Positions 4,430-62,644 of a stretch of 64,000 bases of DNA are shown one piece after another. Within the stretch, counting starts at the first letter, position 1; each line of letters starts with the position of its first letter. The DNA is taken from the IMG/VR virus record IMGVR_UViG_3300023196_003249, positions 1 through 64,000 of that record; one strand, written 5' to 3'. Made by a program: the position numbers and the translations under genes. The notes beneath the pieces are model-generated. The model did no database searches. It saw nothing but the letters and a program-made list of their open reading frames with translations, and was not told the origin of the DNA. This DNA comes from a virus.

Positions 4430-5206
4430 TTATAATAAGTCGCCTTTTAAAGCTATGATTTTTGTAATTTCAGACACGAAATTATCTTCAGAATAATTAT
4501 ATCTTAATAATCTATCCTTTACTTGTAGTAAAGTATCTTTCTCATCAATGGTACACTCACTAAGTTGTTCATTAACTAAATCAATACACTCACCAATAGT
4601 TTCAGTATAAACTTTTTGTTGACCTTCAACATCTTTAGCTATGATTAACTTAACAATATTAAACTCCCCTTCATTAATCTCAGAGAATTTATCATTAAAC
4701 TTATCTTGAGCTGCCTCAAGGACCATATCACTTTTAAAGATTTCAGGAGTTTCAGCTTTAACAACAACTTTATTGTTATTTATATAGTCCGATATGAAAT
4801 AAGTAGATTCTAACAATTTGTCGATATTACTACTAGTTTTATCTTTAGTTGCTAATGTATTAATGTTTTTGTGTAATTCTTTTTTATCATAATCTTCTTT
4901 AATAACTTCATAGCCATGTTTGGTTAAGTAGTTTACTAGCTTATTATTTTCAGATATGATATTATCCTTACCCAATCCTTTTAACACATCAATAGCCTCT
5001 TTCACATAGTTGTTGGACTTAAAACTGTCCACTTCAACCATACTCTCAAGTTTATTATATATGTGATACTGAGCTCTTAAAACATTACTTTCTTTAAGCG
5101 TTTTAAAGTATGCTTTAAATACCTTTTTACCTTTATTATCCTTATCCCTAACAGAGTCAGCGAAAATGTTTTTAAAGGTCTCGTTTATTATACCAAAATT
5201 TTGCAT
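4430..5206 (-). CDS. hypothetical protein
   Basis: ORF between the portal and protease genes (the position of T4 gp67/gp68-like genes). No motif recognised. Confidence 0.55.
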   Translation of the reverse strand: MQNFGIINETFKNIFADSVRDKDNKGKKVFKAYFKTLKESNVLRAQYHIYNKLESMVEVDSFKSNNYVKEAIDVLKGLGKDNIISENNKLVNYLTKHGYEVIKEDYDKKELHKNINTLATKDKTSSNIDKLLESTYFISDYINNNKVVVKAETPEIFKSDMVLEAAQDKFNDKFSEINEGEFNIVKLIIAKDVEGQQKVYTETIGECIDLVNEQLSECTIDEKDTLLQVKDRLLRYNYSEDNFVSEITKIIALKGDLL

Positions 5207-16045: not shown

Positions 16046-18496
16046 ATGAAATGCGACATTGGTCCAAAGGTTAACGAAATAGTACAAAATGCAATAAACG
16101 AGGCACACTCTTATGATGATACCGAGTTATTGCCAGAACATATATTATTGGCTTTAATTTTAGATGATACTAATGAAGCTATTGAGGCATTACGTAAAAG
16201 ACATGTTGATGTTGATAAAATGTTTGAAACTTTATCGTTGTTTTTGAAAAGTAACACATATAGAAAACGTAACGCTTATTCAGTTTCAGATTTAAAACCT
16301 AGCGTTGGTGCAACATTCATCATCAATCAAATGGACCACGAATGTGATAGGTTAGGTGATAAGATTGTAGAACCTAATCATTTAATGTTAGGGATATTAA
16401 AAGGTAAATCACAAGCACAGAGATTATTAATGAAAAATAATATAAATTATATAACTTTTAAAAAGGAAATTATGGGAGAATATGAAAACGATGATATGGA
16501 AGAACAAAGTCCAATCAGACCTAGGAAAACTAGAAACGTTCAAGAACAAACAAGTAAAACACCAGGGTTAGATAAATTCTGCGTAGATATTTCAAAAGCC
16601 GCAGCCGATGGTAAATTAGACCCAGTTGTTGGTCGTGAAAAAGAAGTTCGTAGAGTTACTACGATACTAGCACGAAGAAAAAAGAACAACCCAGTACTTA
16701 TTGGAGAACCAGGAGTTGGTAAAACTGCAATAGTAGAAGGGTTAGCATCACTTATACACAGTGGTGATGCACCTCAACCACTTTTAAATAAAAGAATCTT
16801 CTCATTAGATTTAGCATCAGCAGTTGCTGGAACTAAATATAGAGGTCAGTTCGAGGAAAGAATGAAACACATTTTAACTGAATTAAAAGCGAATAAAGAT
16901 ATTATCTTATTCATTGATGAATTACATACAATCGTTGGTGCTGGTAACGCATCCGGTTCATTGGATGCATCTAACATCTTCAAACCTGCTTTAGGTAGAG
17001 GTGAAATACAAGTTATTGGTGCAACTACTCTAGATGAGTTTAGAGAAAATATAGAAAAAGATGGTGCTTTAAATAGAAGATTTCAACAAGTATTGGTGGA
17101 AGAACCAACATTTGAAGAAACAGTTGAAATCCTAGAGAACATTAAAGGAAATTATGAAAACCATCACAATGTTATTTATAGTTCTGATATTATAGCTGAA
17201 ATTACTAAGTTAGCTGACAGATATATTCCAGAAAGAGCCATGCCAGATAAAGCCATCGATGTTTTAGATGAGGTTGGTGCAGCTACAAAAATAGATATTA
17301 AAGCGCCAGATGATATTGTAGAACTTAAAGGTGAACTTGCTAAAAGTAGAGAAGAAAAGATGCAAATCGTTGCTGAACAACGTTACGAAGAAGCGGCCAC
17401 ATATTTGAAGAAAGAAGAAGAAATCATGGCTGAAATCGGTAAATGGGAAGATGGTATTAAAACTAATATTACCACTATTACTCATGACATGGTAACTAAA
17501 GTAGTGTCAACTACAACAGGAATTCCATTAGATAAACTTTCAACTACTGAAAATAACACACTTAAAAACTTAGATAAAGATATCAAAGCGACTGTTATCG
17601 GTCAAGATGAGGCTGTTGATAAAATCTCTAGAGCAATTAAGCGTAGTAGATTAGGTGTTAAGAGTCAACATAAACCAATTGGTTCATTTATGTTCTTAGG
17701 TTCAACTGGTGTAGGTAAAACTCACCTTGCTAAAGTATTGGCTGAACAAGTATTCGGTGATGCTGAAGCCTTAATTAGAGTTGATATGTCAGAATACATG
17801 GAGAAACATGCAATGTCTAAATTGATTGGAGCACCTCCAGGATACGTAGGATACGGTGAGGGTGGTAAATTAACTGAAGCGGTTCGTAGAAAACCTTATT
17901 CAGTAATATTATTTGATGAGATTGAAAAAGCTCATGATGATGTATTTAACTTATTATTACAAGTGTTAGATGAAGGTCATTTAACAGATTCAAATGGTAT
18001 AAAAGTGAATTTCAAAAACACTATGATTATCATGACATCTAATATTGGTGTGAAAGAATTATCACAATTTGGTGGTGGTATTGGATTTGAAACTGGTAAC
18101 TCAATAGTTAATGAGGAAAGCAGAGCTAAGAGTATAATCAAAAAAGCTCTTAAGAAAAAATTCAAACCAGAATTCTTGAATAGAATTGATGATACTATTA
18201 TCTTTAATGGCTTACAACCAGAACACATTGAAGTTATCATCAAGCATGAGTTAAATGAAGTTAAAAAGCGTATCGCTGAATTAGGTATTGCGTTAACGTT
18301 AACTAAAGATGCAATGACTTTCATAGCAAAAGAAGGTTACCATAAAGAGTATGGTGCAAGACCTCTTAATAGAGCAATACAGAAGTATGTAGAGGACCCT
18401 ATTGCTGATGCCCTTATCAACGGAGATTTAGTTGATGGTGGTAAAATTAAGTTAGGATATAGTGAGAAGAAAGGTGTCACTAGTACCATTTCGTAA
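16046..18496 (+). CDS. clpC: ClpC-type class I AAA+ unfoldase (Clp/Hsp100 family)
   Basis: Two Clp_N repeats ([16 protein letters not shown]). D1 has [15 protein letters not shown] and ILFIDELH. Short UVR-like middle segment [10 protein letters not shown]2 has [12 protein letters not shown] and [14 protein letters not shown] loop at the position of the ClpP-docking tripeptide. Confidence 0.9.
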
Positions 18497-39748: not shown

Positions 39749-39800
39749 TTGAAATAACTCTATCATTTATTTGGTAGGGTTATTTTTTTGTTTATATTTG
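39749..39800 (+). promoter_or_regulatory. terminator-promoter cassette family 1 (TTGAAATAACTCTATCA-tttatt-TGGTAGGGTT)
   Basis: Copy 2. Confidence 0.65.
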
Positions 39801-39829
39801 CCTATCATTAATCATTAAAATATCATATT

Positions 39830-40096
39830 ATGACCACAGAGTACACATATTGGGAAACAGAAACACATCAGGAAAAACAAGACAGATTAAGATTACTACC
39901 TTTTAGGGGTTCAACCATTAACTTAATTGATAAGAGTGGTAAAACCTCAGATGATGAGTACAGCCTTTTACACACCTTACCTTATTCAATTGGTGACTAC
40001 ATTACAAGCCACGACCAAACTTATAAAATAGTAGAGATAGATTGGTGTTTAGACAACCAACGCCAATACGTAACAGCCCACAAAGTAAAACGTTAA
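39830..40096 (+). CDS. hypothetical protein
   Basis: ORF followed by a terminator. Confidence 0.5.
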   Translation: MTTEYTYWETETHQEKQDRLRLLPFRGSTINLIDKSGKTSDDEYSLLHTLPYSIGDYITSHDQTYKIVEIDWCLDNQRQYVTAHKVKR

Positions 40097-40113
40097 CCTC
40101 AACACACTTAACA

Positions 40114-40138
40114 AGCCTCCTTTCTGGGGGCTTTTTTT
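40114..40138 (+). terminator. rho-independent terminator AGCCTCC-tttct-GGGGGCT + T7
   Basis: 7-bp stem with one G-U pair, then a T run. Confidence 0.7.
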
Positions 40139-40139
40139 A

Positions 40140-40640
40140 TGCCCGATAGTTACATAGCCTGGGGAAGAAAATTCCCTGATGATATATTGCCGGATGTTAC
40201 CAGATAAGGTTCCTTCCCGGAGGCTTCCCCCAATCAGGTTGACCTGGTAATCGGGGTCCTTCCAGTGCGGGAACCTTCAGCATTTGCAGGTCCTGCAGCA
40301 GGTTTCCCTGATGGTCCCAGCTCCAGAATTCCCGGCACCGCTTCCCTGATGAGGGTCCTGATGATATGCCAGATATTGCCGGATGTTGCTGCTTCCCGGT
40401 GCCTGACCAGCTCCAGCGGCAACCAGGTTAAGGTCCTGATGGTTCCTGCTCCGGGTATTAGGCTTCCCGGTGGTCCTTTGCCGGGCTTCCTAGCTCCAGG
40501 TCCTTCGTCCTGATGTGGGTCCTGATTCCCGGGTGGTCCTGACCAGAGTGGTTCCTTCCGGCGGACCTGATTCCTGACCAGAATAACCTGATAATCAGGT
40601 TGGCCGCCCCTGATGAGGGTCCTGAAAGAAATATACGATT
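40140..40640 (+). repeat. GC-rich ORF-free island dense in same-strand GGTCCT, CCTGA(T/C) and CCGG words
   Basis: About 9 GGTCCT, about 14 CCTGA and about 12 CCGG in 500 bp, all in plus orientation. Two of the three plus frames carry several stops; the third is open for ~102 low-complexity Pro/Gly-rich codons with no ATG at its 5' end. Confidence 0.8.
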
Positions 40641-40698
40641 TTCCTTGTGGGTTAATTAGGAACCACTTATATTTGTAATATCTTAAAACAACGATATT

Positions 40699-41028
40699 AT
40701 GACAGTAGCAACAATTATCAAAGAAGACGAAGACAACGGAAGTTTAATTTTCAATTATGGATTAATGCATAATTTAGCACAATTCGGAGCCGTTAGTGCT
40801 TATGCGGGAATATGTGGAGGCGGTTATGAGGCTGCATTTCAATGGGCAGACCATAACGTGGCAGACATTAACGAAGTAGAAAACAGCAAGTACAAAGGTT
40901 GGATTATTACAGATTTAATGGGAGTCGAAAGAAAGGTTTATATCAAAAAATCAATTTTAAATATCAAAACAAATAATTGGAAATATGCATTTAATCTTTT
41001 CAAAAAATATCTAACAGTAAAACAATAA
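40699..41028 (+). CDS. hypothetical protein
   Basis: ORF. Confidence 0.5.
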   Translation: MTVATIIKEDEDNGSLIFNYGLMHNLAQFGAVSAYAGICGGGYEAAFQWADHNVADINEVENSKYKGWIITDLMGVERKVYIKKSILNIKTNNWKYAFNLFKKYLTVKQ

Positions 41029-41529: not shown

Positions 41530-41742
41530 ATGAGAGAAATTATAGATTATAAGATAGTAACAAACAAGTCACCTTCAGAATTAACTACGAAGGTATTAGA
41601 CTTGATGAAGGAAGGTTGGAGTCCAGTAGGCTCACATCAAGCACTAACCACAGAGAGTTATGACCAGTACTCAGGTAACCAGCACCGTGCAATCAAATAC
41701 ACAAATGTGTATAGCCAGACGGTAGTAATGTACGCAGAGTAA
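41530..41742 (+). CDS. small protein, possibly DUF1737-like
   Basis: IDYKIV...L...EGWSPVG pattern (from memory). Contains an ACACAAATGTGT box. Confidence 0.4.
   Translation: MREIIDYKIVTNKSPSELTTKVLDLMKEGWSPVGSHQALTTESYDQYSGNQHRAIKYTNVYSQTVVMYAE
41698..41711 (+). promoter_or_regulatory. ACACAAATGTGT box (intragenic)
   Basis: Copy 3. Confidence 0.35.
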
Positions 41743-42623
41743 TGAATGTACTATCAACCTTTAATGGAATGGGATGTATCTGGTTAGCGTTAGACCAGCT
41801 GGGGATTACAGTTGATACCCGGTACTCAAGTGAGATAGATAAGTATGCCAACCTGATAAACGATAAGAACTATCCGGATACTATCCAGCTGGGAGACATC
41901 CGGGACATCAGGGCGAAGGACCTGAACCCGGTAGACTTGCTGGTAGGCGGTTCCCCGTGTCAGAACCTGAGTCTGGCTGTAATAAACAACCTGATGCATA
42001 ATCAAGGCCTTGCCGGGGAGAAGTCTAAACTATTCTATGAGTTCTTACGCCTGAAGGAAGAAACTAACCCGACCTATTTCCTTCTGGAGAACGTGGGAAG
42101 TATGAAGAAGGGTGATATGGATGCTATTAGTTACGCTCTGGGTGTGGAACCTGTCCGGATTAACAGCAACCTGGTATCAGCGCAGGACCGTGACCGGCTG
42201 TACTGGACTAATATAGATGTGCCGGAAGGACCTGATGACCGGGGCATAAACCTAGGAGATATAGTTATGGCACCAGATCTGGTGCCAGGTAAGTATTGGT
42301 ACAATAAGCCCTTCGAATATAAAGGTCCTGATGCGAAGGTCCAAGCTATTCTGGGGATAAATGGCCATGATATACTCAAGAGGGTATATAACCAGTCCGG
42401 GAAGTGTGGTACCCTGACGAAGGTATCCGGTGGCTCCCAGCAAAAGAAGGTTTATCAGGACGGAAGGTGTAGGAAGTTGATGCCGGAAGAGTATGAAGCC
42501 CTTCAAACGGTACCATCAGGTTATACTGAAGGAGTATCAGACACCCAACGCTGGAATATGTTGGGGAATGGTTGGACGGTGGATGTCATCTCACATATAC
42601 TTTCTGGGATGTTAGGTTATTAA
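41742..42623 (+). CDS. dcm: DNA (cytosine-5)-methyltransferase
   Basis: Motif I FNGMGC, motif IV GGSPCQNLS, motif VI LLENV and C-terminal LGNGWTVDVI. GC-richer than its surroundings. Confidence 0.9.
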   Translation: MNVLSTFNGMGCIWLALDQLGITVDTRYSSEIDKYANLINDKNYPDTIQLGDIRDIRAKDLNPVDLLVGGSPCQNLSLAVINNLMHNQGLAGEKSKLFYEFLRLKEETNPTYFLLENVGSMKKGDMDAISYALGVEPVRINSNLVSAQDRDRLYWTNIDVPEGPDDRGINLGDIVMAPDLVPGKYWYNKPFEYKGPDAKVQAILGINGHDILKRVYNQSGKCGTLTKVSGGSQQKKVYQDGRCRKLMPEEYEALQTVPSGYTEGVSDTQRWNMLGNGWTVDVISHILSGMLGY

Positions 42624-46377: not shown

Positions 46378-46761
46378 ATGAAAGCAAAAGATTTAGCAGC
46401 TATCCTGCTGCAGCACCCGGAGAGAGATGTAATATTCTGGAACGGGACCGACAACGTTGACATAGACAGCGCAACCCCGGATGAATGTAATGATGTTGAA
46501 GTGGTCCTGTGTAATGTGCACCAGACCAATAACCCGGAGCCTGATGTAACCATTGCCACCCTGATGGCCAATTCAATACTGGAGAATGAGGATTATCGTC
46601 AGGTAGAACTGGAGCCTCAGGAAGCGAAGGACCTACTATACCTGTGTAATATGTGGGAGGACCGAGACAGCATAGAGATAGAAATCAACCAGTTCCTGAA
46701 CAGGAATGGCTATTGCTTCGATGATGAAGAGTGTAGCTGGTATAACCCTTTAAAACAATAG
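46378..46761 (+). CDS. hypothetical protein (GC-rich codon usage)
   Basis: Start set to MKAKDLAAIL after the cassette promoter. Confidence 0.55.
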   Translation: MKAKDLAAILLQHPERDVIFWNGTDNVDIDSATPDECNDVEVVLCNVHQTNNPEPDVTIATLMANSILENEDYRQVELEPQEAKDLLYLCNMWEDRDSIEIEINQFLNRNGYCFDDEECSWYNPLKQ

Positions 46762-46763
46762 AT

Positions 46764-47111
46764 ATGGGACGAGAAGTAAGCGTAGAGTTTAGACACTGGG
46801 AGTTTGATACTGGGAAGGACCTGGAGCCTCAGCTGGTGCAATTCCCGTTCGATGAGGACTGGAGGACCAATGAAGATTACTTTCAGGGAGACACTCTGGA
46901 GCTGGGGTTCGAGAATGAGGCCCAGAGACTGGCTAGTGAATGGCTCCAGGACCATCAGGTCAGGAACCAGAAGGACCTAGAAGCCTGGATAAAACATCTG
47001 GAAGCCCAGGTATATGAATCTGATACATATTATTCAAGCTGGGAGTTTTCCCTGATAGCTATAGGCTCCGGGAAGTTTGCTGTGGCCTGCTGCATTACGA
47101 CCCGATGGTAA
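46764..47111 (+). CDS. hypothetical protein (GC-rich codon usage)
   Basis: ORF with the same k-mer flavour as dcm and the 40.1-40.6 kb island. Confidence 0.55.
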   Translation: MGREVSVEFRHWEFDTGKDLEPQLVQFPFDEDWRTNEDYFQGDTLELGFENEAQRLASEWLQDHQVRNQKDLEAWIKHLEAQVYESDTYYSSWEFSLIAIGSGKFAVACCITTRW

Positions 47112-56415: not shown

Positions 56416-57228
56416 TTAAACTAATTCTAATTCTTTGCTAACATCGATTAAAAAATCGTTATTATCAATGTTATCTTTGTTTTGGCCTTTAGTACCTTTG
56501 CCAGTCACTAACTTGTACTTAAGCCCTACAATAACATTCTCTTCATCTAAAAACCTTAAATCACTTTCGTCACCATTGATAACTTTAAATCCTTTATAAG
56601 TCTTAGGTAGCTCTTGTACGTTCTTTACGCCAAATACATAAGCAACATTAAAACCTCTATTCAACATATCAATGCTTTCAACATCGTTAGTCTCACTTCT
56701 AGAAAAAGTTAAGTGATAGTTTCTAGGTAATACCTTATCAAATCTTTTAGGATTTTTAGTATAGTCATAGAATTGAACAGTAGGAAAGTGTTCAAATAAA
56801 TTCTTACCGTTAACCTTAATCTTTTCAAATGGTATATCAGCTGTACCGTTTAATCTAATAGCAAAATTCTTATAACGTACTACTTTACCTGTACGTCCTA
56901 TTTGCTTTTCACCTACAACTTTTTCATGTAGATAAACAATTTTAGATATCTCATTGAATAACTGTAGCATAAATCCTTTCCTATCAGCTAAATAGTATTC
57001 AGTCTTATTCATTTTACCTAACTGAACATTGCTAAATCTAGCCGCTCCAGAATTAAATAAACAAGCTTTAGCACACCCTACAGAAGCATGGCTACATAGG
57101 TTTATACCTTTAGAGTTTTGCTTATGTGGTGCCAAATACATAATGTAAGTTGTATACCCTAACTTTTCACCTTTAATAGTCTTGCTATTGGTAGTTGATA
57201 ATAAATTGTTTGGTACTTTGTAATTCAT
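56416..57228 (-). CDS. conserved Cys-cluster phage protein (possibly GP88-like; function unknown)
   Basis: KTIKGEKLGY.T.I.YLAP....GINLC..AS.GC..ACL pattern. The family name is recalled from memory only. Confidence 0.45.
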   Translation of the reverse strand: MNYKVPNNLLSTTNSKTIKGEKLGYTTYIMYLAPHKQNSKGINLCSHASVGCAKACLFNSGAARFSNVQLGKMNKTEYYLADRKGFMLQLFNEISKIVYLHEKVVGEKQIGRTGKVVRYKNFAIRLNGTADIPFEKIKVNGKNLFEHFPTVQFYDYTKNPKRFDKVLPRNYHLTFSRSETNDVESIDMLNRGFNVAYVFGVKNVQELPKTYKGFKVINGDESDLRFLDEENVIVGLKYKLVTGKGTKGQNKDNIDNNDFLIDVSKELELV

Positions 57229-61730: not shown

Positions 61731-61756
61731 AATATTGGTTTTAAATTAATAACACG

Positions 61757-61788
61757 GCAAACATATAACTAATATTCCATATAACCTA
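61757..61788 (-). promoter_or_regulatory. TTAGGTTA-N16-TAtgTTTG promoter subclass
   Basis: 32-nt architecture. Confidence 0.45.
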
Positions 61789-61917
61789 ATCTTTTTTAAT
61801 AATCTTTTTTGACTTACTTTTTACCCTATAGAAAACCACGAATTTAATACTAAAATCAAAGTTTTTGAAAATAAATCAAAATATATTTGCAGGGGTCCTT
61901 TTTATTAGTTACCTTTG

Positions 61918-62010
61918 ACTTGTCATAGGGAAACTGCGACAGGGCGGCCAGATACACCAACTGGGGAAGAGTAGACTCCACCCTACGCAATGTTTTCCTC
62001 TTTTTTTTTT
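61918..62010 (+). ncRNA. candidate ~90-nt small RNA containing the conserved 35-nt core, ending in T10
   Basis: TAccTTTG box at 61910-61917, core at 61965-61999, GGAAGA/TTTTCC pairing, T10 at 62001-62010. No ORF. Confidence 0.3.
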
Positions 62011-62025
62011 AAAAGTGTGTCAACG

Positions 62026-62068
62026 CAAAGTTATAACAAATTCTTCACAATACCTAATATATTGTGAA
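62026..62068 (-). promoter_or_regulatory. hairpin-promoter (inverted copy of 47200-47242): TTCACAAT..ATTGTGAA .. TAacTTTG on minus strand
   Basis: Fires leftward, antisense to the candidate sRNA. Confidence 0.5.
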
Positions 62069-62130
62069 CTATTTTTTTTTAATTATTTTCACTTTTTATT
62101 TGGTGGTCTCGATAATTAGCCCTACCTTTG

Positions 62131-62220
62131 TAATACGATTCGGGGTGAACGCACCTCGGACATATCGCTGTGCCCGAAATTTCGAGGCCATACAGTGTAC
62201 ACCCGCTTGTCCTTGTTTTT
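62131..62220 (+). ncRNA. candidate structured RNA downstream of TTTG-N21-TAccTTTG (62098-62130)
   Basis: GC-rich segment with GGGTG/CACCC and CCTCG/CGAGG pairings and a T5 end. No ORF. Confidence 0.2.
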
Positions 62221-62630
62221 AATTAAACAAATTGGGCATCGGGATAAAACTGCCTAATTTTGAAAATAGGGTAGCGTATACGTGTGTCCAAAATTTTGAA
62301 GCACCCAGAAATTCACATGCCTAAATTCACCTGGCACCGTGATAGATGAATAGTACCTGGTAGTAACGAATCGAGCCGCTCGAAGGGTCCTAAAAAATCG
62401 GCCGAAAATTTTAGATTTTTAGTGAATGGGTCGCTCCGAAATAATCTGTGACGGAATTTCCTATGGGTCAAATGTGGGTCAAAGTGGCTTTTTGTGGTAA
62501 AACGTGGGATTTGCCCTATACATCGAAATAACCAAAGCGTGTCGTTCCCTGTGAGAAAAGATACATCAGATACCCTTTAGGACTCATTTTAAGCCTCTTT
62601 AGCACCATTTCAGAGGCTATTATATGTCCA

Positions 62631-62644
62631 TACACAAATGTGTA
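62631..62644 (+). promoter_or_regulatory. ACACAAATGTGT box
   Basis: Copy 9. First of three boxes spaced 62-63 bp apart. Confidence 0.5.

What the first reader, a model, noticed from the sequence alone, without database searches (positions are those of the whole stretch)
40140..40640. 500-bp GC-rich, ORF-free island saturated with same-strand GGTCCT / CCTGA(T/C) / CCGG words
A segment whose composition is foreign to the genome begins immediately after a terminator (40114-40138). GGTCCT occurs about 9 times (for example 40254, 40289, 40347, 40431, 40471, 40498, 40517, 40536, 40616). CCTGA(T/C) occurs about 14 times and CCGG about 12 times, all on the plus strand. There are longer repeats: CCCTGATGAGGGTCCTGA at about 40344 and about 40608, and CCTGATGATAT..ATTGCCGGATGTT at about 40176 and about 40357. 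Short palindromes are also present (CAGGTtgACCTG at 40235, AACCTGAtaaTCAGGTT at 40585). I translated all three plus frames. Two carry several stops. The third is open for 102 codons but is Pro/Gly low-complexity with no ATG at its 5' end. Three hypotheses follow. (a) An iteron-like protein-binding array: replication origin, packaging site, or centromere for the ParB-like protein. (b) A structured ncRNA. (c) A decayed gene from the same GC-richer donor as dcm (41742..42623) and 46378..47111, which share the k-mers. The density of GGWCC and CCGG sites next to a C5-methyltransferase is also notable.
Basis: partly seen in the sequence, partly recalled or inferred. Interest (0 to 1): 0.65.

Follow-up and report, generated by a model that had tools for sequence, protein, structure and literature searches.

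The report
Lineage-specific GC-rich non-coding insert
A 540-base GC-rich stretch made of a few short words repeated on one strand is a real but dispensable insertion in one jumbo phage of Bacteroidota; its closest relatives lack it, and nothing shows that it encodes a protein, a known RNA or a regular protein-binding array.

Summary
Window 40140-40640 is 55-59% GC in a 33.5% GC genome. GGTCCT occurs 9 times (0.3 expected) and CCTGAY 13 times (0.65 expected). 64% of the island lies in same-strand repeated 8-mers (9% in shuffles), and inverted repeats are at chance.

It is not a recognisable gene. There is no period-3 signal, no usable ORF and no Pfam hit, and no significant homologue for any of the six frames among 5.8 billion proteins. 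It is not a recognisable RNA either. There is no Rfam hit, no host-type promoter on either strand, and the core folds no better than shuffles. It is not a periodic iteron array.

The decisive result comes from relatives. Three relatives of the upstream gene (one 91.5% identical in DNA up to base 40104) and three relatives of the downstream gene all lack the island. At that position they carry the phage's ordinary 80-140-nt AT-rich intergenic spacer.

The island is therefore a lineage-specific block of about 540 bp (40105 to about 40645) that brings its own terminator. The best reading is a recently acquired, dispensable, slippage-built non-coding insert. It shares vocabulary with two GC-richer resident genes. 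A functional binding platform cannot be excluded, because only one copy exists.

The parts
40105..40645 (.). Lineage-specific inserted block: GC-rich terminator plus word-rich body. The right boundary is approximate (+/-15 nt).
   Evidence: L316 is identical to the window through ...GTTAACCTCAAC (window 40104) and then diverges into the standard AT-rich cassette. On the right, similarity to the promoter regions of L121, L122 and L124 starts at about 40646.
40113..40140 (+). Intrinsic terminator (8-bp stem, 5 G-C pairs, T7 run) that ends the upstream gene's transcript. It lies inside the inserted block.
   Evidence: terminator scan.: -13.1 kcal/mol, z -2.9. On the minus strand the stem carries a C-A mismatch and no U run follows.
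40172..40627 (+). GC-rich core built of same-strand words (GGTCCTGA, CCTGATG, TTCCCKG, AGCTCCAG, TGCCRGAT) in scrambled order, with irregular spacing.
   Evidence: 64% in repeated 8-mers. (no tandem period). (z of about 0 or higher in the core 40250-40520).
40344..40361 (+). First exact copy of the 18-mer CCCTGATGAGGGTCCTGA.
   Evidence: family D1.
40608..40625 (+). Second exact copy of the 18-mer CCCTGATGAGGGTCCTGA, 264 nt from the first.
   Evidence: family D1.
40546..40668 (.). The only significantly self-complementary part. An 11-bp closing stem (40546-40556 with 40657-40667) encloses the hairpin 40559-40606, the palindrome 40585-40601 and a CCCT/AGGG hairpin. It abuts the -7 promoter box.
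   Evidence: 141-nt segment: z -3.9 plus, -4.4 minus. (window 40550-40669: z -3.2 and -3.6). (I5, I6).
40668..40675 (+). TATATTTG, a Bacteroidota-type -7 promoter box (TAnnTTTG) for the downstream gene. This is the only such box within the 40100-40760 region on either strand.
   Evidence: The consensus is taken from PMC6847099 and PMC7366714.
39830..40096 (+). Upstream 88-aa gene. It is conserved in relatives that lack the island.
   Evidence: P0005 90%, P0006 77%, P0007 73% identity.
40699..41028 (+). Downstream 109-aa gene. It is conserved in relatives that lack the island.
   Evidence: P0002 78%, P0003 72%, P0004 66% identity.

Best explanation
The island is a recent, lineage-specific and dispensable insertion of about 540 bp (40105 to about 40645). 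It sits between two small early-type genes of a roughly 360-kb jumbo phage whose host is a member of the Bacteroidota. It occupies the place where relatives carry the phage's ordinary 80-140-nt AT-rich terminator-promoter spacer.

Shown:
- The block brings its own strong plus-strand intrinsic terminator at its left end.
- Its body lies in the gap between that terminator and the next gene's promoter.
- It has no coding signal.
- It has no host-type promoter.
- It has no match to a known RNA family.
- It has no regular site spacing.
- It is built almost entirely of a few short words repeated in direct orientation.

Inferred:
- The body is non-coding passenger DNA that grew by repeated short duplications (slippage or template switching).
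- The starting sequence probably belonged to the same GC-richer gene pool as the resident dcm and 46378-47111 genes, because the island's minus strand shares their sense-strand vocabulary.
- Its only present roles are transcription termination for the upstream gene and spacing.
- It has been in the genome too short a time for its GC content to drift down to the genome's level.
For: Absence in relatives:
- L316 is 91.5% identical in DNA over window 39788-40103 and identical up to base 40104. It then carries the standard cassette and the next gene after 90 nt.
- L317, L318 and L319 also have intergenic gaps of only 80-100 nt. L318 keeps the synteny 89-aa gene ... DUF1737 - dcm.
- L121, L122 and L124 carry the downstream gene with 100-140-nt AT-rich upstream regions. 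In L123 an ORF abuts it. None has GC above 0.40.

The standard cassette hairpin occurs 9 times in the window, so the normal architecture is known.

Not coding:
- No period-3 signal.
- Flat codon-position composition in the open minus frame.
- No Pfam hit.
- No hit for any of the six frames among 5.8 billion proteins.
- The single HMMER hit arises from 12 repeats of a 34-aa unit that each match one short query segment at about 29 bits.

Not a known or visibly transcribed RNA.

Built from direct repeats: 64% against 8.7% coverage by repeated 8-mers, with inverted repeats at chance.

Shared vocabulary with resident GC-rich genes, on the opposite strand:
- 26-38 shared 8-mers per 500 nt, against 7-12 on the same strand.
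- The best local alignments beat 200 of 200 shuffles but are only 14-25 nt long.
- Tetranucleotide correlation of 0.36-0.37, at about the 99th percentile of 385 control chunks.

No other copy:
- INPHARED and PLSDB gave nothing above chance.
- IMG/VR holds no copy of the 18-mer and only unrelated matches to the other island words.
- 185,579 GTDB genomes give 15 single chance hits inside ordinary genes.
Against: - The word enrichment and strand asymmetry are extreme (9:0, 13:2). The GC content has not drifted down, and the core is no more self-complementary than chance. A selected single-strand binding platform would look the same.
- Only host sigma-A-type promoters were searched. Phage-specific promoters are unknown, so transcription is not excluded.
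- Absence from relatives shows that the island is dispensable for that lineage. It does not show that it has no function here.
- Only 64 kb of the 360-kb genome could be inspected for further copies.
- Origin by slippage is an inference from the repeat structure. No intermediate forms were seen.
Confidence: 0.5

Rival explanations
1. The island is a double-stranded DNA protein-binding array, for example octamer iterons of an accessory origin as in phage P4 ori/crr, or a packaging or partition site. In this reading a phage protein recognises GGTCCTGA- or CCTGATG-type words in direct orientation.
For: Several word families are highly over-represented, all in one orientation. A composite of about 18 nt, TTCCCKGRTG(AG)GGTCCT, recurs about 6 times (read directly). 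Unrelated phage contigs hold true non-coding arrays that contain the word GGTCCTGA: L130 and L160 (about 30-nt period, about 12 copies, after a terminator) and L148 (11-nt period, 7 copies). A weak ParB_N-like gene lies 7 kb away.
Against: There is no regular or helical-phase spacing and no tandem period. The DNA between the words is also GC-rich, which binding sites do not explain. Both flanking genes occur without the island in relatives, so no cognate binder is linked to it. The island is absent from every relative found. The terminase genes are 31 kb away.
Confidence: 0.13
2. The island is a functional non-coding RNA that works as an unstructured, motif-dense platform or sponge. Read on the minus strand it carries 33 GGA and 17 AGGA motifs (UCAGGAC, CAUCAGG), which resembles Csr/Rsm sponges. 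In a Bacteroidota host the partner would have to be another RNA-binding protein, for example an RRM-type Rbp.
For: The words are strand-specific, and the core is no more structured than shuffles despite 57% GC. B. thetaiotaomicron RbpB binds GUAGGAUA repeats in vitro and does not bind UCCUGUGC (bioRxiv 10.1101/2021.04.27.441718). The right-end domain is significantly structured.
Against: - No TAnnTTTG promoter lies on either strand apart from the one that serves the downstream gene.
- The terminator is oriented for the plus strand and sits at the 5' side of the island. On the minus strand it has a mismatch and no U run.
- GGA motifs are not preferentially unpaired (0.42-0.53, against a mean of 0.42).
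- There is no Rfam hit at E<=10.
- The host phylum lacks CsrA and Hfq (PMC13370968, PMC7366714), and the window holds no csrA or hfq.
- Relatives lack the island.
Confidence: 0.1
3. The island is a non-autonomous mobile element, such as a MITE or an IS200/IS605-type palindrome-associated element. It would have inserted just after ...TCAAC, with a terminator-like hairpin near its left end and a structured right end.
For: The left junction is sharp. A hairpin lies 9-29 nt from the left end and a structured 120-nt domain at the right end. The composition is foreign to the genome. Several homing endonuclease genes in the window show that the genome is invaded by mobile DNA.
Against: There is no second copy in the window. 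No copy turned up in IMG/VR, JGI metagenomes or GTDB genomes. There is no terminal inverted repeat and no target-site duplication; the only 17-nt imperfect inverted repeat (I1) has one arm inside the conserved upstream gene. No transposase remnant appears in any frame. There is no HEARO or IS605-type Rfam hit.
Confidence: 0.1
4. The island is a frame-scrambled remnant of a Gly/Pro-rich (collagen-like) or other GC-rich protein gene, that is, a pseudogene.
For: GGT CCT GAx (Gly-Pro-Asp/Glu) is the dominant word of collagen-like genes in more than 100 phage and giant-virus contigs, and these genes form GC-rich islands in AT-rich genomes. GG pairs show a weak excess at distances that are multiples of 9 (27 against about 17 per class). 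The minus strand is depleted in stop codons (8 against 15 expected, P = 0.0045). The vocabulary is shared with the sense strands of resident GC-rich genes.
Against: No run of 4 or more Gly-X-Y triplets occurs in any frame. GGTCCT words fall in all three phases (worked by hand from the positions), whereas true collagen-like genes keep one phase, e.g. 15 of 15 or 31 of 31. There is no period-3 signal. No translated homologue exists. blastn finds no DNA similarity to any of the 119 collagen-type loci. The open minus frame is not significant against shuffles (P of about 0.08-0.10).
Confidence: 0.12
5. The island is an assembly artefact, a chimeric segment in a metagenome-assembled contig.
For: The source is a metagenomic contig of 360,451 bp. 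The segment has foreign composition and no relatives.
Against: Both flanks return to the same phage in the correct order and orientation. The block supplies a well-formed terminator exactly where one is needed. Its tetranucleotide signature resembles that of resident genes.
Confidence: 0.05

Closest known systems
Morons and lineage-specific intergenic insertions in mosaic phage genomes
   Same: The island is present in one lineage and absent at the same locus in close relatives. It lies between two conserved genes, has a base composition distinct from the surrounding genome, and carries its own intrinsic terminator.
   Different: A moron is a transcription unit with a promoter and an expressed ORF. 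Here no promoter and no credible ORF were found, and the body is made of repeated short words.
Cryptically simple DNA (scrambled short-motif repeats generated by slippage; Tautz-type cryptic simplicity)
   Same: A few short motifs are strongly over-represented in irregular order, with no tandem period. The repeats are direct, not inverted.
   Different: This kind of DNA was described mainly in eukaryotes. In a compact phage genome, a 500-bp block 24 percentage points richer in GC than the genome is unusual.
Iteron arrays of phage and plasmid origins (for example P4 ori/crr octamers, lambda ori, and the L130/L148-type arrays seen here)
   Same: There are multiple same-orientation copies of an 8-nt word, in a non-coding position after a terminator.
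   Different: The spacing is irregular, several unrelated word families are involved, the inter-site DNA is GC-rich, no linked initiator gene exists, and relatives lack the array.
Csr/Rsm-type sponge RNAs (CsrB, RsmY/Z)
   Same: The minus strand carries about 17 AGGA and 33 GGA motifs in 500 nt, with words such as CAUCAGGAC that look like CsrB repeats.
   Different: The motifs are not in hairpin loops. The minus strand has no promoter or terminator, and there is no Rfam match. The inferred host phylum lacks CsrA.
Collagen-like repeat genes of phages
   Same: They share the words GGTCCTGA(T/A), and they also appear as local GC-rich islands in AT-rich phage genomes.
   Different: The island has no Gly-X-Y run, only a weak hint of 9-nt spacing, words in mixed phases, and stops in every plus-strand frame.

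Membership tests
Iteron-type replication origin / protein-binding array | Three or more copies of one repeat in the same orientation | tested here: met
   GGTCCT x9, CCTGAY x13 and GGTCCTGA x5, all on the plus strand. The composite unit of about 18 nt occurs about 6 times (read).
Iteron-type replication origin / protein-binding array | Regular spacing of the repeats (fixed period or helical phasing) | tested here: not met
   Gaps between CCTGAY words range from 7 to 132 nt. The top autocorrelation lag has z of only 2.6. TRF finds only a 10-nt x2.8 repeat.
Iteron-type replication origin / protein-binding array | Linked gene for the binding protein or initiator, and conservation of the array with it | tested here: not met
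   Both flanking genes occur in relatives without the island. Neither has any family hit.
Iteron-type replication origin / protein-binding array | Demonstrated protein binding | not testable with these tools
   This needs EMSA, DAP-seq or ChIP.
Structured non-coding RNA (any Rfam family) | Match to a curated covariance model | tested here: not met
   There are no matches at gathering score in the whole window. At E<=10 the only hits are terminator-driven or chance hits.
Structured non-coding RNA (any Rfam family) | Folding energy below that of shuffled sequence | tested here: not met
   Whole island: z -0.03 (plus) and -0.46 (minus). Core windows: z of about 0 to +1.8. Only 40546-40668 is structured, with z from -3.2 to -4.4.
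Structured non-coding RNA (any Rfam family) | Own promoter and terminator on the transcribed strand | tested here: not met
   The only TAnnTTTG box, at 40668, serves gene 40699. The terminator lies at the 5' side on the plus strand and is defective on the minus strand. Phage-specific promoters could not be tested.
Structured non-coding RNA (any Rfam family) | Covariation among homologues | not testable with these tools
   No homologue of the island was found in any collection.
Csr/Rsm sponge RNA | Many GGA motifs presented in hairpin loops | tested here: not met
   The minus strand has 33 GGA and 17 AGGA motifs. Their unpaired probability is 0.42-0.53, against a mean of 0.42 for all positions.
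Csr/Rsm sponge RNA | Host or phage encodes CsrA/RsmA | tested here: not met
   The window has no csrA. The host is inferred to be Bacteroidota. Papers on the genus Bacteroides report that it lacks CsrA and Hfq (PMC13370968, PMC7366714).
Pseudogene (decayed protein-coding gene) | Translated similarity to a protein family, possibly with frameshifts | tested here: not met
   Pfam has no hit for the four longest open stretches of the island, two on each strand. The six-frame query has no hit among 5.8 billion proteins. Exhaustive HMMER of the open minus frame gives only a repeat-inflated hit. tblastn of the dcm and 46-kb gene products against the island finds no collinear match.
Pseudogene (decayed protein-coding gene) | Residual codon periodicity or position-specific composition | tested here: not met
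   Autocorrelation by lag mod 3 is 0.255, 0.264 and 0.250. Composition is flat at codon positions 1-3 of the open minus frame, unlike dcm.
Pseudogene (decayed protein-coding gene) | Oligonucleotide usage like that of candidate source genes | tested here: met
   The minus strand shares 8-mers and 9-14-mers with the sense strands of dcm and 46378-47111. Local alignments beat all shuffles. The tetranucleotide correlation is at about the 99th percentile.
Collagen-like repeat coding sequence | Uninterrupted Gly-X-Y runs with 9-nt periodicity and words in a single phase | tested here: not met
   No run of 4 or more triplets occurs in the island. GG distance classes mod 9 show only a weak excess (27 against about 17), compared with 84 of 98 in a true gene (L143). 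GGTCCT phases are mixed, whereas coding arrays keep a uniform phase.
Moron / lineage-specific insertion | Present in one lineage, absent at the same locus in close relatives | tested here: met
   L316 (91.5% nt identity) and L317-L319 for the upstream gene, and L121-L124 for the downstream gene.
Moron / lineage-specific insertion | Base composition distinct from the genome, and its own terminator | tested here: met
   0.51-0.59 GC against 0.335. The terminator at 40113-40140 lies inside the block.
Moron / lineage-specific insertion | Own promoter and an expressed ORF | tested here: not met
   No promoter box. No ORF with an ATG start; the 82-aa GTG ORF and the 62-aa TTG ORF have no homologues.
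MITE / IS200-IS605-type non-autonomous element | Multiple copies with the same ends, and terminal inverted repeats or subterminal hairpins | tested here: inconclusive
   Hairpins are present near both ends, but no second copy was found in the window or in the collections. The remaining 300 kb of the genome is not available.

The most novel reading that the evidence does not exclude
The island may be an accessory, horizontally acquired binding platform. In this reading it is a GC-rich yet deliberately unstructured single strand, RNA or DNA, that displays about 30-40 copies of four or five short words in one orientation. It would titrate or recruit a host or phage nucleic-acid-binding protein. 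In a Bacteroidota host, which lacks CsrA and Hfq, that protein could be an RRM-type RNA-binding protein. This would be the first phage-borne sponge of that kind.
Probability: 0.08. Interest if true: 0.75.

Novelty: new member of a known kind. Interest (0 to 1): 0.3.

Why it matters
If the best reading is right, the island is an ordinary by-product of mosaic phage evolution. It still has practical value. It marks a recombination junction in a poorly known group of Bacteroidota jumbo phages, and it shows the modular terminator-promoter cassettes at which these genomes exchange genes. It is also a clear case of repeat-built DNA in a phage.

The island would matter more if it proved to be transcribed or bound. 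Word-dense, strand-specific, unstructured GC-rich platforms are how sponge RNAs work, and no such element is known for phages of a phylum that lacks the classical RNA chaperones.

Tried and rejected
1. Known RNA families. Rfam at gathering score for the whole window and at E<=10 for 39900-40900 gave nothing relevant. ARAGORN found no tRNA or tmRNA. A manual check for hammerhead (CUGAUGA...GAAA) and C/D-box readings of CCUGAUGA...CUGA found that stem II is impossible and the guide spacing too short.

2. CsrB-like sponge on the minus strand. This was attractive by eye. I rejected it because the motifs are not in loops, the window has no csrA, the host is Bacteroidota and the minus strand has no promoter or terminator.

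3. dcm pseudogene. A 19/20-nt match and the peptide 'IRTKDL...GSP' looked like MTase motif IV, but tblastn shows no collinear similarity.

4. Collagen-like relic. The words fit but nothing else does.

5. Recoded stop codons (TGA as a sense codon). This would open one plus frame but still without a start, and the rest of the phage uses the standard code.

6. Methylation-site cluster for the neighbouring C5-methyltransferase. GGWCC and CCGG are enriched, but 10 of the 11 GGWCC sites are GGTCC on one strand. The asymmetric word, not the palindromic site, is what is enriched. CpG observed/expected is low, at 0.49.

7. Searches for other copies.
- INPHARED and PLSDB blastn found nothing above chance.
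- IMG/VR scans with four different word patterns returned no copy or only unrelated hits.
- The JGI metagenome scan returned single hits in unrelated high-GC contigs that show no word clustering like the island's, apart from the unrelated L069 array noted separately.
- The GTDB genome scan returned 15 single hits inside ordinary genes such as ABC ATPases ('TLMRVL') and GltX.

8. The P0008 hit (E = 1.3e-11). I rejected it as an artefact of a 12-fold repeated target. Each alignment scores only about 29 bits.
Full report
**Observation**

The region was read directly. In 300-nt windows the GC content rises from about 0.30 to 0.51-0.59 between 40050 and 40649 and then falls back. The window mean is 0.335, and this is the only stretch above 0.50. 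It is also the only GC-rich gap among the ORF-free gaps of 250 nt or more.

I tested the word counts against 2000 dinucleotide-preserving shuffles of the island itself.
- GGTCCT occurs 9 times (0.32 expected), and its complement occurs 0 times.
- CCTGA[TC] occurs 13 times (0.65 expected), and its complement occurs twice.
- GGTCCTGA occurs 5 times (0.02 expected).
- CCGG occurs 10 times (3.0 expected).
- GGWCC occurs 11 times (1.9 expected).

The two exact 18-mers, the split repeat at 40175/40357, the palindromes and the terminator are all present.

A global measure gives the same picture. 64% of the island lies in 8-mers that recur on the same strand, against 8.7% (sd 4.9) in shuffles. Inverted repeats are at chance, 10% against 7.8%. 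There is no tandem period: TRF reports only a 10-nt x2.8 repeat, and no autocorrelation lag stands out.

**Is it a gene?**

The plus frames carry 28 stops (19.8 expected), mostly TGA from the words. The minus strand carries 8 (15 expected). One minus frame is open from beyond 40698 down to 40237, but this is not significant against shuffles (P of about 0.08-0.10). That frame also has no start codon before a TTG at 40422, and its composition is flat across codon positions. There is no period-3 signal.

Pfam finds nothing in the four longest open stretches of the island, two on each strand. A concatenated six-frame query found nothing at E<=0.01 among 5.8 billion proteins. An exhaustive HMMER search of the open minus frame against 1.84 billion representatives returned one protein. 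That protein holds twelve copies of a 34-aa repeat, and each copy matches the same 30-44 residues at about 29 bits. This is an artefact of score summation.

The suggestive similarity to the neighbouring methyltransferase, 'IRTKDL...GSP', is not collinear and is not significant.

The collagen-like reading also fails. GGT CCT GAx is the signature word of more than 100 collagen-like genes in IMG/VR. The island, however, has no Gly-X-Y run. Its word phases are mixed. It shows only a weak mod-9 excess. It has no DNA similarity to those loci.

**Is it an RNA?**

There is no Rfam hit at gathering score or at E<=10, and no tRNA. The whole island folds no better than shuffles on either strand, with z of -0.03 and -0.46. 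Sliding windows give z of about 0 to +1.8 through the core. Only 40546-40668 is significantly structured, with z from -3.2 to -4.4 on both strands. This domain is built from inverted repeats and abuts the next promoter.

Read on the minus strand, the words look like CsrB repeats (UCAGGAC, CAUCAGG; 17 AGGA). These motifs are not preferentially unpaired, and the window has no csrA.

**Host and transcription signals**

None of 67 genes has a 5-mer Shine-Dalgarno sequence. 21 of the 67 have TAnnTTTG within 60 nt upstream. That motif occurs about once per kb of sequence in the window, so roughly 4 would be expected by chance. This is the signature of Bacteroidota, the phylum's -7 box and its lack of SD sequences (PMC6847099, PMC7366714). 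Papers on the genus Bacteroides report that it lacks CsrA and Hfq (PMC13370968).

Around the island, the only such box is at 40668-40675 on the plus strand, 24 nt upstream of the ATG of gene 40699. There is none on the minus strand.

The hairpin at 40113-40133 is a good plus-strand terminator (-13.1 kcal/mol, followed by a T7 run). On the minus strand it has a C-A mismatch and no U run.

The island body therefore lies between a terminator and the next promoter. By host-type signals it should be transcribed only by read-through.

**Relatives: the decisive evidence**

The window belongs to a contig of 360,451 bp. It encodes a T4-like portal and terminase, a ClpB-like ATPase and thymidylate synthase, so it is a jumbo phage. 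INPHARED and IMG/VR hold no close relative.

The large protein collection has three relatives of the downstream gene, at 78%, 72% and 66% identity. It also has three relatives of the upstream gene, at 90%, 77% and 73% identity. None of their contigs has a GC-rich island.

L316 is 91.5% identical in DNA to window 39788-40103 and identical through the stop codon to ...GTTAACCTCAAC (window 40104). It then continues with the phage's standard AT-rich cassette. That cassette is the hairpin AAGACTATCATTTATTTGGTAGTCTT, a T run and a TAnnTTTG box, and the next gene follows after 90 nt. The cassette hairpin occurs nine times in the window.

L318 keeps the synteny 89-aa gene ... DUF1737 - dcm, without the island. 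On the right side, similarity to the promoter regions of L121 and L124 begins at about 40646.

The island is therefore a lineage-specific block, 40105 to about 40645, and it includes the GC-rich terminator.

**Where might it come from?**

No other copy or donor was found in phages, plasmids, IMG/VR, JGI metagenomes or 185,579 GTDB genomes.

Within the window, the island's minus strand shares vocabulary with the sense strands of the two GC-richer resident segments.
- It shares 26-38 8-mers per 500 nt on the opposite strand, against 7-12 on the same strand.
- Exact matches reach 14 nt (GAAGGACCTGGAGC).
- The best local alignments beat 200 of 200 shuffles, but only over 14-25 nt.
- The tetranucleotide correlation is 0.36-0.37, at about the 99th percentile of 385 controls.

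The dcm gene is also GC-rich in the relative L318, so this GC-richer dialect is an old resident of the phage group. I infer that the island arose from sequence of that pool and was reshaped by repeated short duplications. This inference is not shown.

**Weighing the explanations**

The data fit best a recent, dispensable, repeat-built non-coding insert whose present role is termination and spacing (confidence 0.5).

The alternatives are:
- a DNA-binding array (0.13);
- a frame-scrambled pseudogene (0.12);
- a motif-platform RNA (0.10);
- a non-autonomous mobile element (0.10);
- an assembly chimera (0.05).

None of these is excluded. The extreme word enrichment, the strict strand asymmetry and the unstructured GC-rich core are what keep the functional readings alive.

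**Limits**

- Only one copy exists, so covariation and conservation tests are impossible.
- Only host sigma-A-type promoters could be searched.
- 300 kb of the genome was not available.

Noticed in passing
window 39434, 39760, 43232, 46310, 49179, 51665 (+); 54710, 57283, 58138 (-): A standard intergenic cassette recurs 9 times (0.28 expected). It consists of an AT-rich 15-bp hairpin (CTATCATTTATTTGGTAG core), a T run and a TAnnTTTG promoter box. It separates small early-type genes. It appears to be the module boundary at which related phages exchange genes, because the same cassette follows the 88-aa gene in L316.
   Followed up: partly
window 37149, 37416, 41696, 48109, 49797, 50832, 52370, 62629, 62691: The palindromic motif TACACAAATGTGTA recurs about 9-10 times (0.1 expected), mostly just upstream of plus-strand genes, dcm included. 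It is possibly a second promoter class or an operator of a phage regulator. None lies in the island.
   Followed up: no
window 41742-42623; L318 1129-2004: The 293-aa C5-methyltransferase matches eukaryotic DNMT3A/3B/3C catalytic domains (E about 1e-20) better than M.HhaI (1e-14) in the PDB sequence search. It is GC-rich (0.45-0.54) in the relative L318 as well, so its composition is ancestral in this phage group, not recent.
   Followed up: partly
window 46378-47111: Two adjacent GC-richer genes (127 and 115 aa) have no family hit. They reuse the word AAGGACCTG (Lys-Asp-Leu) five or six times and have raised direct-repeat coverage (24% against 8%). These are the same words as in the island, on the opposite strand.
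   Followed up: partly
L069 about 4690-5050 (minus strand), contig Ga0210401_10022065: An unrelated 59% GC metagenomic contig holds an intergenic array of about 330 nt with about 17-20 CCTGAT words at a spacing of about 12-13 nt. The array lies next to a lipoyl-domain E2 acyltransferase gene. Read on the other strand it is an AUCAGGR array, possibly a binding array for an RNA- or DNA-binding protein.
   Followed up: no
L130 4130-4530 (and L160); L148 about 9290-9205 (minus strand): These are true non-coding tandem arrays that contain GGTCCTGA. L130 and L160 have a unit of about 30 nt (AACCAGGTATTTAGGTCCTGAATGCATTT) about 12 times, after a terminator and near a DnaA-C-like gene. L148 has an 11-nt unit (CTTGGTCCTGA) 7 times. 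They are likely replication origins of unrelated phages. L130 also shares a GP88-family protein with window 56416-57228.
   Followed up: partly
window 61731-62637: This is a 907-nt stretch without an ATG-started ORF of 55 or more codons, at 0.37 GC. It is the longest such gap in the window. Two copies of the TACACAAATGTGTA-type motif lie at its right end.
   Followed up: no
window 16046-18496; L124 434-655: The phage encodes an 816-aa ClpB/ClpC-type double-AAA+ chaperone, and a relative's contig encodes ClpS. This suggests that the phage group manipulates host proteolysis or disaggregation.
   Followed up: no
window 40117-40126: The left arm and loop of the island's terminator read CCTCCTTTCT. 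From memory, this equals the 3' end (anti-Shine-Dalgarno region) of bacterial 16S rRNA. It is probably coincidence.
   Followed up: no
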